DNA of 64,000 bases from an uncultured Verrucomicrobiae bacterium. GTDB taxonomy: Bacteria; Verrucomicrobiota; Verrucomicrobiia; Chthoniobacterales; Chthoniobacteraceae. Numbering within the stretch: position 1 is the stretch's first letter; each line of letters begins with the position of its first letter. Made by a program: the position numbers. Shown one piece after another: positions 33,201 through 39,200 of this stretch. Where the stretch lies: contig CAVYKI010000009.1 of the NCBI GenBank assembly GCA_963769025.1, forward strand, positions 608,001 to 672,000, read 5' to 3'.

Positions 33201-36200
33201 CGGGATGGCGAACGTGCCGTTCCTTGGCGCTTCGTGGGAGCTTCGCAACACGATCGTGGGCGGCAACAGTGCACCGAATGCGCCGGACGTGAGCAATGCA
33301 TTCGGTTCGCAAATCAGCCAGGGGAACAACCTCATCAAGGTCACCACCGGCGCCCCCTCAGGAAGTTTTGTCGCCAGCGACATCCTCGGTGCAGATCCAC
33401 GGCTCGGCCCCCTTCAGGAAAACGGGGGACCGACGCTGACTCACGCGCTCCTGCCCGGCAGCCCGGCCATCGACAAAGGCAGCAATGGCAACCTGCTCGC
33501 CAGCATGACCACGGATCAGCGGGGCTTCATGATCCGCGTCATCGACGGCGGCCTCAGCCTCACGGTGGACATCGGCGCCTACGAATACACCTCGGCAAAA
33601 GGGCTCAAGAACGAGGCAATCGCCAGTCTTACGGATTGCCTTTCCAGCACGCACTGCAAGACCCGCGTGTGGGCAGCTGCTGCGATCCTCCGCATCCAGC
33701 GCAGTCTGACGCCAGCGTTGTGGGTGACGGGGAGCGACACGACTCTCACGAGGTGTGGGGAACTCGTGTTCGATAAAGAGCAGGAGGCAGCCTATCTCAT
33801 TCAGAAGATCATCAAGTATAGCCCCGACCTGGCATGCGTGCAGTCGGCCACCTACGCGGTCCAGGATCTCGTGCTGGCGGATGAGCAGCTTGCCCGCGAG
33901 GCGATCCGCCTTGCCGTCGCCGCGAACGGCAACGCCAAAAAAATCCAGGACGCGAACAAGGAACTTGTCACCGCCCAGTCATATCTTGCCAAGCAGGACT
34001 ACAAGAAGGCCATCGAGCACTTTAAACATGCATGGGAAAAGGCGCAGGAATCGGTCGGCATCAAGCCGGACGACGACACATGCAAGGCCCTGAAGAAACA
34101 GTGGCAGAACGACGGCGACGACGATGACGACGACGAGGAGGACTGCAATTAAGAGCCATTCGATCCTTGGTTGAATTCAGGGCGGCCGGAGTTTTCTCCG
34201 GCCGCCCTTTTTTTGCATTTGCGTGGGGATCGCAGGGAATCGAATCGTGCACTGCACCTTCTCAGTCGCGCGATCTGGGTGCCGGAGGCAGCGCCACACC
34301 CATGGCTTCCAGGCTCTCGCGGATTCCTCCCAGCAGCCCCGCGAAGTCTCCCGGGGTGAGCTGACCGATCGTGCCGATGCGGAAGCTGTCGCCGTGGGAA
34401 AGCTTGCCCGGATAGATGACGAGGCCGCGCACGGCGAGCCGGTGGCAGAAGTCCTCGAAGTCAAATCGCGGGTCGGCCGGGAAGTGGAAGGCGATGATGA
34501 TCGGGCCTTGCAGTTCCCGGCGGAGGACAGGCCGGAATCCCATCCCCTCCATGCCTGACAAAAGCGTGCGCTGGCTTTCCCGGTAGCGCCTTTCCCGCGC
34601 GGCGACGCCGCCTTCGCGGGTGAGTTGATCGAGTGCCGCGGCGAGGGCGAGGCAGACATGCGTGGGGGGCGTGAATCGGAACTGGCCGCTGCTCTCGAGT
34701 TCGTCCCTCTGCGCTGGCAGATCGAGGCTCACGCTGCGGGCGTGGCCTCGCGCGGCATCGAGGGATGCGCTTCGCGCAATCGCAAAGGCAATGCCGGGGA
34801 CGCCCTCGATGCATTTGTTCGCCGAGGAGATCAGGCAGTCGATGTTCCATCTGGTGACATCCACCGGGATGCCGCCGAAACTGCTCATCGCATCCACCAG
34901 GAAGCGCCGCCCGGCTGCCGCGACGACGGCCCCGATTTCCGCGATGGGGTTGAGGATGCCGGTGGTGGTTTCGCAATGGACGGCAGCGACGTGGGTGACC
35001 TCGGGGTGTGCGGCGAGATGCACTTTTGCGGATCCCGGATCGTTCGGCTCGGTCTCCGGTGCTTCGATGCTGTCCACCGCGATGCCGAGCCGTTGCGCGA
35101 TGCCGATCATCCGGCGGCCGTACGCCCCGTTGGCGAGGACGAGGAGCTTTCCGTCCGGTGGGATGAGCGAGCCGATGGCGGCTTCGATGGCGAAGGTGCC
35201 GCTGCCTTGCATGGGCACTGCCGAGAACTCCGGGCCGGCGCCGGCGATCATCAGCAATTCCTGGCGAATGTGACGGACGATCTGGATGAAGGCCGCATCG
35301 CGCGGGCCCATGTCCCTTTGCATGGCGTCGCGCACGGCGTCGCTCGTGTTGATCGGTCCGGGCGTGAAGAGGCGCTGGCGGATGTGGTCCGTCATTTCCG
35401 GGTGGCGAGGTATCGCATGAAGCGTTCCTTGATTGCAGGCGGCTTCACCGCGGGCCGGCCGAGTTTCTCCAGCGAGCCAGGGCGGATTTTCAAATGGAGC
35501 AGCGAGGGGCCGGCGTTCGGGCACATCTCCGCAAGACAGGCGGCGAGGTCCTCGGCACGCTCCGCGCTGAAGACGTTTCGGTAGCCCGCCGCCGCGGCGA
35601 TTCGCGCGAAATCAACCGTCGGGGAGACGGTCGCCTGCCCTCCGGTGGAATCGTGCGTTTCATTGTCGAGGATGATGTGGATCAAGCGCTCCGGCTGGTA
35701 GTGGCCGATGGTCGCAAGCGTCCCCATTTTCATGAGCGCCGCGCCGTCACCGTCGAGGATGATGACGCGCTGCCCCGGCAGTGTGTGCGCGATGCCGAGG
35801 CCAATCGCGGACGCGGTGCCCATACCTCCGACGACGTAGAGATTTCCCGGCCGGTCTGAAACGGTGAAGAGTTCGCGCCCGGTCTTGCCAGTCGTGGCCA
35901 CGATGGCGTCGTCGTCGGTGCAGAAGCGAAGGATGTGAGCGATGGCCTTACTGCGCGTGAGTCGCAAGGACGGCGAATCGAAAGGCAGAAGCCGTGCATG
36001 CGCCTTCACTGTGGCGGCTGCCGCGCGCGGCTCTAGCGCGCACGTCGCGAAGGTGTCCTTTTTCAGGATGAAGGCGAAGGGAAGCTGTCGCTCGCGCATG
36101 GAGGCATCGGCTTCGTCGAGGGCGGCATCCATTTCTCCCTGCTCCTCGGGGAACGGCAGCCACGGGATCTCCAGCGTGTCGAGCATCCGCTGCGTGATGC

Positions 36201-39200
36201 GGCCCATCAGTTCGTGCTGCGGCTCATCGGCGAGTCCCGGCTCGCCACGCCAGGTGGTGACGAGCAGCGTGGGGATGCGGAATGGATGGTTGAGCGACGT
36301 GAGCGGATTGATCGCGTTTCCGAGTCCCGAGTTTTGGCAAAGGGTCACCGTCTTGCGACCGGCGAGACTGGCGCCGAGGTTGATGCCGATTGCCTCGCCT
36401 TCACTCGTTGCGCCCACGTAGTCGAGTTCGCGGTCGTTGATCACAGCGTTGATCAGCGGCGTCAGGAAGGAGCAGGGGACTCCGGAAAAAAACGAGTATC
36501 CGAGAGCACGCAGCCTCGCGAGAAGCGCCCGTGCTTCGATCATTCCGCGCTGAGTGGGGCGAGGCTGAGCTTCGCGGGCGGACGCTTCGGCCGCGCCGAT
36601 GTTGCCAGCGCGGCTTTCTCCGCACCGTCGGCGATTTTTGCGGACTGGCCGGCGCTGTCGCCAGGAAGGTATCGCCTTTCGGCCTCGGTGAGTTCGTCGG
36701 CGTTCTGGAGGCGGAAGACTTCCTGCAAGGGAGCAATTTCCCCATCGATGCCGGTCACGGACTGTTCCTCGAAGATCTGGCGGCACGTCGCCTGCATCGC
36801 CGCGATCGAACTCCTCAGATTGTGATTTGCCCAGATGACCGTGCTGAATCCGGCTTCGGCGAAAACCGCCGCCGGCGTCCGACTGAAGGTCGTGGGCACC
36901 ACGATGAGCGGGGTGGAGCGATCCCACTCTGAGGCAAAGGCGAGGACCTCGTCTGCGTCAGTCCGCTTGCTGTGCACGAGCAGGGCATCCGCTCCGGCAT
37001 CGGCATACAGGTGCGCGCGGCGAAGAACCTCCGCAATTTCCACTCCCGCAATGAATCCCTCCAGTCGCGCGATGACGCAAAAATCCGCACGGCTTTGCGT
37101 GTCCTTAGCCGCCTTGATCTTTCCGGTGAACTCCATCGGATCCACCAGCTTCTTTTTGCCCTCGCTCAGGGAATTGCGCTTCGGAAAAATCTGGTCTTCG
37201 ATGCACACGCCGTCGATTCCGCGCTGATTGAGCTTCCGCACGAGTCGGCGGACGTTGTTGAAATTCCCAAACCCCGAGTCCCCATCGAGCAGGATCGGCA
37301 GCCGGGTGGCGTCGCGCATGAATTCCACGATTTCGAGCACCTGGGTCCAGCTCGCCTCGTTGCAATCGCGGACGCCGAGCGTGGCCGACATGGAAAGCCC
37401 GCTGGCCCAGATCCCGGCAAAGCCCGCCTCCTCGACGATCTTCGCGCTCAGCCCGTTGTGAGCTTCCATGAAGAACTCCATTTCCCCGGAATACAGCAGT
37501 TCTTTCAGCCCGCGAGGCTGGGGTGGATTGTGATTATGTTTCAAAGGATGGGGGAGGTGGAAGGCTGTCGCAATTCCCTTGCCCGCAACAATCATGCTAG
37601 CGGAGGAAGTACTCCGTTCAAGGATGGACTGCCTTCCTGCAGCGGGTTCCATCCCTGCACGTCCGGCAAATTCGAGGTGTCCTGGCGGGCACTGCGTTTC
37701 CTTCCGGCGATGCCATTTGGGTGCAGCAAGGGCGACCGGCTGCTTGACGGCAGCGATGCGGAAAATACCGTGGCGGCCGTGAGCCGTGACGAACATCCAG
37801 CATCAAAGATCAGAGCAGTGCCGGCCCGGTCCATCCGCCAAGGAATGCGCAGCGCGGGGAATTGATCATGTCGCTCTTTTCTTGGCTTGGCATCGGAAAA
37901 GCCAGTCCCGCTCCTTCTGAGCAATCACGGGCTGACCTGACCGGAACTGCAGACCTCCCATCCGTCTTTTGCGATCCGGCCTCGAATAACGCGCGGGACG
38001 CGTTGGACCTCGGAAAAATCCGCATCGTCGAAGATCCCACAGTCGCGGATCTCCTTTGGATGCGGAAGGGGTATCGGGACTGGTTCGGAAAACTCCGGCC
38101 GTTTCAGCTCTTGAATCATTTTCCAAACGAGCGCGCGATGACCGACAAGGGATTCCTCGCAGAGCACCTCGGCAGGTTTTCCAGGAACCAGTCGAAGTAT
38201 GACTTCGGCATGACGGATCTCGTCCAGGAGACCTACTGCCTCTACATTCCGGAAGAGAGGGAGCGTTTCTTCAGCCAGCTTCCGGCTTCTGAATCGAAGG
38301 AGAATCTTTGGATACTCAAGCCCTGCTCCTCGTCCCGCGGCAGGGGCATCCAAATCCTCTGGCAGTTTGATGAGTTGCGCGATGCGTATGCGCATCCCGA
38401 AGAATTCGCATTCGATCCGCAGAAGGACCGCTACGTCATCCAAAGATACATCCGGAACCCGCTGCTGCTCGACGGGCGCAAGTCCGAAATCCGGATCTAC
38501 TGGCTCGTCGCCTCCCTCGATCCGCTCCTCGTCCTCATGTATCGCGAAGGAACGGTGCGGCTGAATACGCAGCCATTCAGCCTCGATGATTTTGAAAATA
38601 CGCTGATCCACGTGACCAATGTGTTTCAGCAAAAGGCCCATCCGGACTACGATCCGTCGGCTGTCTTGAAATGGAGTTTTTCGGATTGGGAAAACTACCT
38701 CATCCAGGATCGGAAGCTCGCGCCGGAGAACTGGGTCGAGGGACACCTGAAGCCGCAGCTCAAGCGCATGCTGTCCTTCGTGGTGGACGCCGCGCGGCCC
38801 ACGCTCTCGCAAGATCTCGGCAACGGACTCCCCTTCGGCCTGTTCGGGGCCGACATCATTTTCGATGACACACTGCATCCCTGGCTCACGGAGGTTCAGA
38901 AGGGACCGGGGCTCAGCTTCGACGACCCGATCAAGCAGAAGGTGATTCCAGCCATGCTGAACGAGGGGATCGCCATCATGCTCGAAGTACGACGCCGCAA
39001 ACGCGACGGCCTCGGATTGGCGCAGCTGGATGCCGTCCAAGGATTCGAGTGGGTGATCCGTGAGACGTGAGGCGCGGCAGAGCTGCTTCGAGCGGCTGCC
39101 GACGATGCTGAGGAACACCAGCAGCACCACCAGCCCGCCGCCTGCGTGCCGAACATCCTTGGGTGGCTTGGCTCACGCAGAGCGTGGCTGCGGTTCCTTC

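What a model noticed while it worked through the whole genome (the two positions that open the first line are those of the whole stretch)
34262..39070. Tubulin-tyrosine-ligase-family ATP-grasp enzyme as the tailoring partner of a 2-aminoethylphosphonate (AEP) gene set
g03381 (C9:645868-647070) is a 400-aa bacterial member of the TTL/TTLL ATP-grasp family (Pfam TTL; recorded in 0 of 29 genus and 1 of 150 family genomes) placed head-to-head with the three genes that make AEP (PEP mutase g03380, phosphonopyruvate decarboxylase g03379, AEP transaminase g03378). No nucleotidyltransferase of the usual phosphonate-tailoring route is in the cluster. I propose that this TTL-like ligase uses the amino group of AEP the way TTL/TTLLs use Tyr/Glu, forming an amide with a carboxylate acceptor (protein or glycan).
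Evidence so far: Pfam/Swiss-Prot rows. Family of ~390-aa bacterial TTL homologues across phyla. Of 34 loci with a homologue from the species-genome collection, 6 carry pepM-ppd-aepT directly beside the TTL gene: head-to-head in a Chthoniobacter bin (L102) as here, and as one co-directional TTL-pepM-ppd-aepT string with gaps of ~55-165 bp in L111 (Nitrosomonas bin), L113, L114, L115 (Verrucomicrobiota) and L120 (Puniceicoccaceae); no other real neighbour recurs. neighbours.tsv: TTL and PEP_mutase near each other in 8 genomes; 578 of 701 TTL genomes hold a PEP_mutase-family gene against 46% of all bacteria. In a quick ML tree of 32 homologues the AEP-linked genes sit in two well-separated clades (own+L102; 5 o [...]
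(Added by a program. Inside this text positions count along the whole contig: contig position 608,001 is position 1 of the stretch shown here. "Call 12" and the like, gene names such as g00115 and contig names such as C1 are that model's own, and its searches are not shown. The text may have been shortened before it was handed on; [...] marks where a part breaks off. The agent that wrote the report below was given it as the finding of a first reader that could run no searches.)

Follow-up and report, generated by a model that had tools for sequence, protein, structure and literature searches.

The report
TTL-like ligase beside phosphonate genes
A bacterial relative of the enzymes that decorate tubulin tails sits next to the genes that make the phosphonate 2-aminoethylphosphonate and next to an exported protein with a poly-aspartate tail, which suggests, but does not prove, a new way of attaching phosphonate to proteins.

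Summary
Window 34262-39070 carries aepT, ppd and pepM (minus strand, joined by ATGA overlaps) divergent from a 400-aa TTL-family ATP-grasp gene.

The linkage recurs. AEP genes lie beside a TTL homologue in 14 of 99 loci (window, 7 of 35 species genomes, 6 of 63 metagenome contigs) in at least four gene orders, including a SET::TTL fusion between ppd and aepT. In the genus, TTL and true PepM were both found only in G000 and G011.

- Exported proteins with poly-Asp tracts lie within 2 kb of TTL in 11 of 99 loci. In the window, the gene next to aepT (32371-34152) ends ...NDGDDDDDDEEDCN, the only such C-terminal tail in the genome.
- A SET-domain gene lies near TTL in 8 of 99 loci.

Best reading (0.45): the ligase amidates Asp/Glu carboxylates of these exported acidic proteins with the amino group of AEP.

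Against it: 26 of 35 TTL genomes lack bona fide PepM, no residue separates linked from unlinked ligases, and there is no biochemistry.

The parts
32371..34152 (+). Exported 593-aa protein with an N-terminal signal-peptide-like stretch, a choice-of-anchor Q domain with GGGI-type repeats, and a C-terminal poly-Asp tail ...NDGDDDDDDEEDCN (tail about 34108-34149). Candidate acceptor of the ligase.
   Evidence: NF041518 choice_anch_Q 77.5 bits; translation; the only D-rich tract at the very C-terminus of an open frame in the 5.34-Mb genome. Homologues in the TTL-less relatives G045 and G003 also have D-rich tails, interrupted by R/C/H.
34179..34208 (+). Terminator-like hairpin (13-bp stem, T run) between the two convergent genes.
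   Evidence: The same segment is 93% identical downstream of the homologous gene in G045 and G003.
34262..35395 (-). aepT/phnW, 2-aminoethylphosphonate-pyruvate transaminase (377 aa from the ATG at 35395).
   Evidence: NF010006 469.5 bits, TIGR03301 440 bits; its start overlaps the ppd stop as ATGA.
35392..36543 (-). ppd, phosphonopyruvate decarboxylase (383 aa from the ATG at 36543).
   Evidence: TIGR03297 428.8 bits; its start overlaps the pepM stop as ATGA.
36540..37595 (-). pepM, PEP mutase. The start is uncertain: 37595, 37655 or 37796. The active-site motif reads EDQIFPKRNS instead of EDKX5NS.
   Evidence: TIGR02320 348.5 bits against cut-off 319.55; motif.
37596..37867 (.). Divergent intergenic region between pepM and TTL.
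   Evidence: Sequence read; no sigma-70-like site found.
37868..39070 (+). TTL-family ATP-grasp ligase, 400 aa.
   Evidence: PF03133 1.1e-48; AF2 model with mean pLDDT 89.1; Foldseek top matches TTLL6 and TTL, TM 0.66-0.70 normalised by query length; phmmer against PDB gives TTLL3 at 2.5e-26; K151, D329, E342 and Q344 invariant in 33 homologues.

Best explanation
The TTL-like enzyme is a cytoplasmic ATP-grasp amidoligase. Like TTL and the TTLLs on the acidic tails of tubulin, it would activate a side-chain or C-terminal carboxylate in a poly-Asp/Glu tract as an acyl phosphate. It would then let a small amine attack. In the AEP-linked lineages that amine would be 2-aminoethylphosphonate made by the adjacent PepM-Ppd-AepT set. 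The product would be an exported protein carrying amide-linked phosphonate groups. In the window the likeliest acceptor is the neighbouring exported protein 32371-34152, with its ...GDDDDDDEEDCN tail. Shown: the gene identities, the fold, the recurrent linkage of TTL with AEP genes, with poly-Asp exported proteins and with a SET gene. Inferred: the donor, the acceptor, the amide chemistry and the order of modification and export.
For: (1) Identity and fold of the four genes. (2) AEP genes lie beside TTL in 14 of 99 loci, in the orders head-to-head (window, L002, L025, L075), TTL-pepM-ppd-aepT (L011, L012, L015, L016, L021, L085, L099, L101), pepM-ppd-SET::TTL-aepT (L081) and aepT-TTL (L086). 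(3) On the 78-row TTL tree the label needs at least 4 changes forced by starred branches and is clustered (0 of 500 shuffles as low). PepM and TTL trees disagree for L081, so the link was rebuilt or reshuffled. (4) Within the genus, TTL and an orthologous PepM occur only in G000 and G011, and in G011 they sit on separate contigs with other neighbours. (5) Poly-Asp tracts (at least 11 D in 20 aa) number 11 in the 290 kb within 2 kb of TTL against 1 in the 607 kb farther away (binomial p 3e-5, 98 loci, window left out). Their non-repeat parts are unrelated between lineages. Those whose N-terminus is held (L005/L009, L011, L015/L016, window) start with signal-peptide- or lipoprotein-like stretches, and L003 encodes GG-leader acidic peptides. 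Six of the 14 AEP-linked loci have such a gene (window, L011, L015, L016, L085, L099). (6) The window's neighbour has the only C-terminal poly-D tail in the genome. (7) Precedent for the chemistry: the ATP-grasp domain of Cj1438 amidates glucuronate with ethanolamine phosphate, a close analogue of AEP (PMC11800379, passages).
Against: Only 9 of 35 TTL-bearing genomes have PepM over the TIGR02320 cut-off. The four near-cut-off hits lack the NS motif. TTLs closely related to AEP-linked ones (L017 beside L021; L006/L008 beside L011) sit in PepM-less genomes. No alignment column separates 14 AEP-linked from 26 unlinked ligases; the best frequency difference is 0.6 and follows clades. Three AEP-linked loci with about 5 kb or more of flank on each side (L002, L012, L021) hold no poly-D gene; L002 lies in an exopolysaccharide locus instead. 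Homologues of the window's tail protein in the TTL-less relatives G045 and G003 also carry D-rich tails. G011 has TTL and AEP genes but no orthologue of that protein. The ligase has no export signal while the candidate acceptors are exported, so modification would have to precede export. There are no biochemical or expression data.
Confidence: 0.45

Rival explanations
1. The ligase does use AEP as amine donor, but the acceptor is not a protein. It would be a uronic-acid carboxylate of a surface polysaccharide (as Cj1438C does with ethanolamine phosphate) or a free acid or amino acid, giving a small N-acyl-AEP product.
For: In L002, the closest AEP-adjacent relative (65% identity), the block lies inside an exopolysaccharide locus with Wzc-like GNVR, Wzy_C, a Polysacc_synt flippase directly after TTL, GT4 and HAD. 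In L021 three GT2 genes and an ABC exporter follow. In L007 a GT2 gene abuts TTL. Li and Horsman 2022 note ATP-grasp ligases flanking AEP cores and predict peptides or phosphonylated peptidoglycan (PMC8942020, passages). Cj1438C is a precedent.
Against: Glycan genes are not a recurrent neighbour across the 99 loci. None lie near the window's cluster. The family's solved relatives all act on protein tails. Poly-D protein genes are the enriched neighbour.
Confidence: 0.2
2. The ligase modifies acidic proteins with an ordinary amino acid (Glu, Gly or similar) in all lineages. The AEP genes are linked for another reason: the same exported protein or envelope structure receives AEP by another route, or the genes share regulation.
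For: Most family members work in genomes without PepM. Active-site columns do not differ between linked and unlinked members. Sorangium loci pair TTL with a poly-D lipoprotein and no canonical PepM. The SET-TTL pair occurs without AEP genes in L017 and L092-L095.
Against: TTL is embedded between ppd and aepT in L081 and heads tightly packed four-gene strings elsewhere. No other AEP-transferring enzyme (nucleotidyltransferase, LicD-like) is in these compact loci or near the window's cluster. AEP has no other obvious consumer in a four-gene operon.
Confidence: 0.2
3. There is no functional link in this genome: a mobile AEP cassette and an orphan TTL gene landed side by side.
For: The genes are divergent, not one operon. 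GC differs (TTL about 0.57, AEP genes 0.64-0.66, flanks 0.68-0.70). In G011 the two are not adjacent.
Against: Recurrence in 14 of 99 loci across four or more phyla and four gene orders. TTL was not found in 400 sampled genomes of the phylum, yet it co-occurs with PepM in both genus members that have either.
Confidence: 0.05

Closest known systems
Eukaryotic TTL/TTLL ligases (tubulin tyrosine ligase; TTLL3 glycylase; TTLL6/7 glutamylases), Pfam PF03133
   Same: Same Pfam family and same three-domain ATP-grasp fold. Candidate substrates are acidic tails or tracts of proteins, as in tubulin. The donor would be a small amine.
   Different: Bacterial, about 400 aa, with no microtubule-binding extension. 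The Mg-site motif reads E-x-Q (Gln344, invariant) where I recall E-x-N in the family. The candidate acceptors are poly-Asp rather than poly-Glu and are exported. The proposed donor is a phosphonate, not an amino acid.
Cj1438 C-terminal TupA-like ATP-grasp amidoligase of Campylobacter jejuni capsule synthesis
   Same: ATP-dependent amide formation between a carboxylate and the amine of ethanolamine phosphate or serinol phosphate (PMC11800379, passages). Ethanolamine phosphate is the O-linked analogue of AEP.
   Different: A different ATP-grasp family: no TupA-like hit for the window protein at E <= 0.001. Its acceptor is a glucuronate of a glycan, and its phosphate is later removed by a phosphatase, which a C-P bond would resist.
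ATP-grasp ligases of phosphonopeptide and AEP-core clusters (rhizocticin and phosphonoalamide type; Paenibacillaceae AEP clusters noted by Li and Horsman 2022)
   Same: An ATP-grasp ligase encoded beside phosphonate biosynthesis genes and predicted to form an amide with the phosphonate (PMC8942020, passages; rhizocticin and phosphonoalamide are recalled, not read).
   Different: Those are amino-acid ligases of other ATP-grasp families that make small peptides. 'tubulin' occurs 0 times in that paper's main text.
Nucleotidyl activation route for AEP tailoring (PntC-type cytidylyltransferase, CMP-AEP; Rice et al. 2019, recalled, not read)
   Same: Also a way to hand AEP to a macromolecule.
   Different: It links through the phosphonate (ester) after CMP activation. 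Here no such nucleotidyltransferase lies in the cluster, and the link would be through the amine (amide).
TTLL12 (eukaryotic SET-like + TTL-like protein of unknown activity)
   Same: The bacterial SET::TTL fusion of L081 has the same domain order and similar length. Its nearest ESM-Atlas clusters by features are TTLL12 (scores 0.91-0.92, 171-184 shared features).
   Different: The window's own protein has no SET domain, and its genome has no partner SET gene. A profile of the bacterial SET partner retrieved no 600-650-aa two-domain proteins among its best 150 hits. Homology to TTLL12 in particular is therefore not shown.

Membership tests
TTL/TTLL family (PF03133) | Score over Pfam's gathering cut-off across the TTL domain | tested here: met
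   166.3 bits against 20.1, residues 80-371 on profile positions 7-281 of 292.
TTL/TTLL family (PF03133) | TTL-type ATP-grasp fold | tested here: met
   AF2 mean pLDDT 89.1, pTM 0.86. All listed Foldseek PDB matches are TTLL6 or TTL chains, E down to 6.6e-24, TM 0.62-0.70 normalised by query length.
TTL/TTLL family (PF03133) | ATP-grasp nucleotide and Mg residues (central-domain Lys; Asp and Glu-x-Asn of the C-domain) | tested here: inconclusive
   K151, K205, R209, D329 and E342 are invariant in 33 homologues. E342 aligns with the catalytic position in the TTLL3 and TTLL7 chains. The Asn position is Gln344, invariant in the family. The mapping to TTL residue roles is recalled, not computed.
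TTL/TTLL family (PF03133) | Acts on tubulin | not testable with these tools
AEP biosynthetic triad (PepM, Ppd, AEP transaminase) | PepM equivalog score | tested here: met
   TIGR02320 348.5 bits against 319.55.
AEP biosynthetic triad (PepM, Ppd, AEP transaminase) | PepM signature EDKX5NS (recalled from Yu et al. 2013) | tested here: inconclusive
   The window reads EDQIFPKRNS: NS is kept and K is replaced by Q. The same holds in L002 and G011. The other TTL-linked PepMs read EDK.
AEP biosynthetic triad (PepM, Ppd, AEP transaminase) | Ppd and AEP transaminase equivalog scores, genes contiguous | tested here: met
   TIGR03297 428.8 against 312.5; NF010006 469.5 against 296; ATGA overlaps.
Nucleotidyl-activation phosphonate tailoring (PntC type) | LicC/PntC-like nucleotidyltransferase (PF12804) fused to or beside PepM | tested here: not met
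   None among the ORFs scanned in 28-46 kb. Of 10 PF12804 matches in the genome, the nearest are at C9:493308 and C9:799486, against the cluster at C9:642262-647070.
TupA-like ATP-grasp amidoligases (Cj1438C type) | Match to the TupA-like ATP-grasp family | tested here: not met
   The only Pfam hits at E <= 0.001 are TTL and a sub-threshold YheC/D ATP-grasp.
RiPP system with GG-leader precursor and C39 exporter (as in L003) | Precursor peptide and C39-ABC exporter beside the ligase | tested here: not met
   Present in L003. No homologue of the peptides in the window or genome, and no C39/ABC gene among the window ORFs scanned.
SET + TTL architecture (TTLL12-like) | SET domain fused to or beside the TTL domain | tested here: not met
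   No SET domain in the window protein. The best genome match to the partner SET has E 0.002.

The most novel reading that the evidence does not exclude
A family of bacterial TTLL-like ligases would install 2-aminoethylphosphonate as an amide on Asp/Glu side chains or C-termini of exported poly-Asp proteins and leader-bearing peptides. This 'protein phosphonylation' would be a new post-translational modification and a third route of phosphonate tailoring. It would give extracellular, phosphatase-proof mimics of phosphoproteins. In some lineages a partner SET enzyme would methylate the lysines of (DDDK)n repeats. The same SET+TTL module may be the prokaryotic counterpart of the enigmatic eukaryotic TTLL12.
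Probability: 0.3. Interest if true: 0.9.

Novelty: new variant of a known kind. Interest (0 to 1): 0.8.

Why it matters
Known routes attach AEP to lipids and glycans through the phosphonate after CMP activation, or build small phosphonopeptides. A TTLL-type ligase that uses the amine of AEP would be a different logic and would put C-P groups on proteins. It would also give the first functional handle on bacterial TTL homologues, a family with no characterised member that I know of. It offers compact, directly testable gene sets: five genes in the window and six in L099. No paper in the held library contains both 'tubulin tyrosine ligase' and 'phosphonate'.

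Tried and rejected
(1) Complex prediction of the L003 TTL-b with its neighbouring GG-leader peptide gave no verdict (score 0.05). 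It counts neither way.

(2) A search for residues that distinguish AEP-linked from unlinked ligases found none convincing.

(3) The idea that TTL modifies the C-terminus of an AEP enzyme was checked. PepM ends in Glu in window, L002 and L015/16, but C-termini are not conserved across the 8 loci. Dropped.

(4) The TTLL12 link was tested with a profile of the partner SET against 1.84 billion representatives. It gave 670 hits at E <= 1e-10, and the best 150 are almost all 80-400-aa stand-alone proteins. The word-based search found only 2 fused forms. TTLL12 homology is left as a lead.

(5) The four near-cut-off 'PepM' hits in Sorangium and others lack the NS motif and were not counted as PepM.

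(6) The ABC-transporter 'cluster' among neighbours is generic ATPase similarity at varying distances.

(7) Sequencing runs: no RNA holder is listed, and only one soil DNA run holds a small share.

(9) No Rfam family or tRNA lies in 31.5-41.5 kb, and no sigma-70-like promoter was found in the divergent region.

(10) A catabolic reading of phnW was rejected: no PhnX over cut-off and no PhnJ in the 83%-complete genome.

Full report
**What is in the window**

The region has high G+C, 0.57-0.70. Four genes fill 34262-39070. On the minus strand lie three genes:
- pepM, 36540-37595, TIGR02320 348.5 bits against a cut-off of 319.55;
- ppd, 35392-36543, TIGR03297 428.8 bits against 312.5;
- aepT/phnW, 34262-35395, NF010006 469.5 bits against 296.

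The stop of pepM overlaps the start of ppd as ATGA, and the stop of ppd overlaps the start of aepT the same way. The three genes are therefore one translationally coupled unit.

Divergent from pepM, after about 270 bp, is a 400-aa gene (37868-39070) that matches Pfam TTL at 1.1e-48 and no NCBIfam model.

No PhnX over cut-off and no PhnJ were found in the 83%-complete genome, so phnW reads as biosynthetic. No PF12804 nucleotidyltransferase lies within about 150 kb of the cluster.

**The ligase**

An AlphaFold2 model built from 33 homologues is confident: mean pLDDT 89.1, pTM 0.86, with only residues 1-24 disordered. All listed Foldseek PDB matches are TTLL6 and TTL chains (E down to 6.6e-24, TM 0.62-0.70 normalised by query length). 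By sequence, the best solved relative is the TTLL3 glycylase 5vlq at 2.5e-26, followed by TTLL7, TTLL6 and TTL.

K151, K205, R209, D329 and E342 are invariant in the family. The position after E-x is an invariant Gln344. The enzyme looks catalytically competent. The assignment of residue roles rests on my recollection of TTL and TTLL structures.

The family is large in metagenomes: 246 hits at E <= 0.001 among the 8000 candidates scored, and all 120 listed carry PF03133. It is rare in genomes. It was found in 0 of 400 sampled genomes of the phylum, 0 of 16 same-order genomes and 1 of 24 genus relatives. The 14 control genomes gave no match.

**Is the link with AEP genes real?**

A pattern scan of 185,579 species genomes gave 35 TTL loci. 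tblastn with the window's proteins found pepM-ppd-aepT directly beside TTL in 7 of them:
- head-to-head in L002 (Chthoniobacter) and L025 (Chlamydiales);
- as a co-directional TTL-pepM-ppd-aepT string in L011, L012 (a Nitrosomonas bin), L015, L016 and L021.

In L021 the open frames abut or overlap by 4 nt.

The metagenome scan gave 63 more loci, many on short contigs, and 6 hold AEP genes:
- L075, head-to-head with a cytochrome c gene in between;
- L085, L099 and L101, co-directional strings;
- L086, aepT-TTL;
- L081, pepM-ppd-[SET::TTL fusion]-aepT.

An all-against-all clustering of neighbouring ORFs found no other recurrent real gene family. The immediate neighbours of the unlinked loci are heterogeneous.

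On a 78-row TTL tree the AEP-adjacent label needs 7 changes, at least 4 of them forced by starred branches. It is clustered, with 0 of 500 shuffles as low. The 34-row careful tree gives 5 changes and 7 of 500 shuffles as low. L081 groups with L012/L015/L016/L101 by TTL but with L099 by PepM, so the partnership has been reshuffled rather than merely inherited.

Within the genus, DNA and protein searches found TTL and an orthologous PepM (82% identity) only in G011, out of 29 relatives. In G011 the genes lie on three contigs. The DNA upstream of pepM encodes a Zn peptidase. The DNA upstream of TTL encodes an ECF sigma and anti-sigma pair. The 5.6 kb downstream of aepT holds no TTL. The two therefore co-occur without being neighbours, which argues against simple hitch-hiking. 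G011 is a fragmented bin with 4% contamination.

**What limits the claim**

Only 9 of 35 TTL-bearing genomes have PepM over the TIGR02320 cut-off. Seven of those are the adjacent cases. The other two, L001/G011 and L003, are in the window's own clade. Four near-cut-off hits lack the NS signature.

Close relatives of AEP-linked ligases occur in PepM-less genomes. No alignment column separates 14 linked from 26 unlinked sequences. AEP cannot be the family's universal substrate.

*(a) Acidic exported proteins.* In L003, the sister of the window's clade, two tandem TTL genes are followed by:
- two small ORFs with a double-glycine leader (...ELxxxDLDKVTGG) and Asp-rich cores ending ...ITFGKE;
- a cNMP-binding protein;
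- HlyD;
- a C39-peptidase ABC exporter and a second ABC protein.

A six-frame scan for tracts with at least 11 Asp in 20 residues found such a tract within 2 kb of TTL in 11 of 99 loci. They are L005, L009, L010, L011, L015, L016, L085, L091, L099, L104 and L135. That is 11 tracts in 290 kb near TTL against 1 in 607 kb farther away (p 3e-5; L005/L009 and L015/L016 are near-duplicates).

The carriers are:
- (DDDK)n proteins (L011, L085, L099);
- poly-D(N) proteins with signal peptides (L015/L016);
- a lipoprotein with (DDDDDH/R)n (Sorangium L005/L009);
- a DUF7467 protein with a poly-D C-terminus (L010).

Their non-repeat parts are unrelated between lineages. The shared feature is the tract itself.

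The window has one too. The gene convergent on aepT, 110 bp away (32371-34152), encodes a signal-peptide-bearing choice-of-anchor Q protein that ends ...KPDDDTCKALKKQWQNDGDDDDDDEEDCN. With a relaxed criterion the whole genome has 37 D-rich open segments, most in spurious frames. This is the only one at the very C-terminus.

Cautions apply. Its 55%-identical homologues in G045 and G003, which lack TTL and pepM DNA matches (by protein search for G003 only), also end in D-rich tails interrupted by R, C and H. G011 has no orthologue.

*(b) A SET-domain gene.* A specific SET family (55-64% identity, SAM and catalytic motifs kept) occurs in 8 of 99 loci:
- fused to TTL in L081;
- convergent just after aepT in L099 and L011;
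- upstream of TTL in the AEP-less L017 and L092-L095.

L099 shows the fullest module: (KDDD)n protein, TTL, pepM, ppd, aepT, then SET on the opposite strand. The window's genome has no such SET gene.

**Mechanism proposed**

TTL and the TTLLs activate a carboxylate of an acidic tubulin tail and add the amine of Tyr, Glu or Gly. That is established knowledge of the family, recalled rather than read here.

The simplest reading of a TTL homologue flanked by genes for a small primary amine (AEP) and for a protein with a poly-Asp tail is the same reaction, with Asp/Glu carboxylates as acceptors and AEP as donor. The (DDDK)n loci with SET suggest lysine methylation of the same repeats.

The ATP-grasp domain of Cj1438 uses ethanolamine phosphate in just this way on a glucuronate (PMC11800379, passages). 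So an aminoethyl-phosphoryl donor is within the reach of ATP-grasp chemistry.

Modification would have to occur in the cytoplasm before export. Cytoplasmic glycosylation of the HMW1 adhesin before Sec export is a precedent that I recall but did not read.

The function of such a product is speculation: metal or mineral binding, or a phosphatase-resistant phosphoprotein mimic.

**Rivals**

- An AEP donor with a glycan or small-molecule acceptor is kept alive by the exopolysaccharide context of L002 and the glycosyltransferases in L021 and L007, and by the ATP-grasp/AEP clusters noted by Li and Horsman (PMC8942020, passages).
- An ordinary amino-acid donor, with AEP linked for other reasons, is kept alive by the many PepM-less members and the lack of distinguishing residues.
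- Chance adjacency is very unlikely.

**Known or new**

No paper in the held library contains both 'tubulin tyrosine ligase' and 'phosphonate'. The phosphonate inventory paper does not mention tubulin. A search combining the ligase with RiPP terms listed nothing relevant. The library lacks most subscription journals, and supplements were not read.

I file the enzyme as a member of the TTL family, and the system as a new variant of TTLL-type modification and of phosphonate tailoring.

**Side lead**

By language-model features, the nearest ESM-Atlas clusters to the L081 SET::TTL fusion are eukaryotic TTLL12 (0.91-0.92). Abstracts describe TTLL12 as conserved and without known enzymatic activity (PMC10889654 and PMC3520985, abstract starts in the listing). 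Sequence searches here did not confirm a specific relationship.

Noticed in passing
window 37185-37214 (PepM motif); L002, L050: The PepM of the window, of L002 and of G011 reads EDQxxPKRNS, while the other six TTL-linked PepMs read EDKxxxxxNS. Gln at this position is what the methylisocitrate-lyase-like paralogues carry. The protein still passes the PepM equivalog cut-off.
   Followed up: partly
L003 9741-9926 and 10034-10210 (+): Two tandem precursor-like peptides with a GG leader and acidic cores ending ITFGKE. They lie between two TTL paralogues and a cNMP-binding protein, HlyD and C39-ABC export genes. This looks like an undescribed RiPP-type system with TTL ligases.
   Followed up: partly
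L081 4004-5866; P0073, P0076; L017 1230-1886: SET::TTL fusions (620 aa) and SET-TTL gene pairs in bacteria. The nearest ESM-Atlas clusters are eukaryotic TTLL12. This was not confirmed by sequence search.
   Followed up: partly
window 37868-37900 and N-termini of homologues: Many family members begin with a short hydrophobic or amphipathic motif (MSLFSWLG, MNLFKYLF, MNLLRNLF, MSFLSNIF) before the conserved IYCD..S.NAR block. It is disordered in the model. It may be a membrane or partner contact.
   Followed up: no
window 40429-40510: An approximately 82-nt segment with 75-85% identical copies in many genomes of the genus and a second copy in G000 at C9:1147010-1147091. It is neither a tRNA nor an Rfam family. 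The minus-strand ORF over it looks spurious.
   Followed up: partly
window 28835-31874: An SOS-mutagenesis-like set conserved in the genus: an impB/DinB-type polymerase (28835-30352, minus) and a LexA-like S24 peptidase (31035-31874, minus). It marks the conserved left border of the variable region.
   Followed up: no
window 41050-42948 (-): A 632-aa protein combining a TrkA_N domain with a RyR domain, an unusual pairing.
   Followed up: no
L021 19444-20586 (-): An NTP_transf_5 (PF14907) gene about 5 kb from the TTL-AEP string, in a GT2/ABC operon. Li and Horsman mention PF14907 beside PepM in another cluster family.
   Followed up: no
L015 6552-6998 and 7203-9356; L016 6327-6773 and 6979-9138: Besides the upstream poly-D protein, these loci hold two more acidic proteins downstream of aepT: a 145-aa protein with an N-terminal DEDEYEDEDDDD stretch and a C-terminal TM segment, and a 710-720-aa protein ending in GDGDDEDD....
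   Followed up: no
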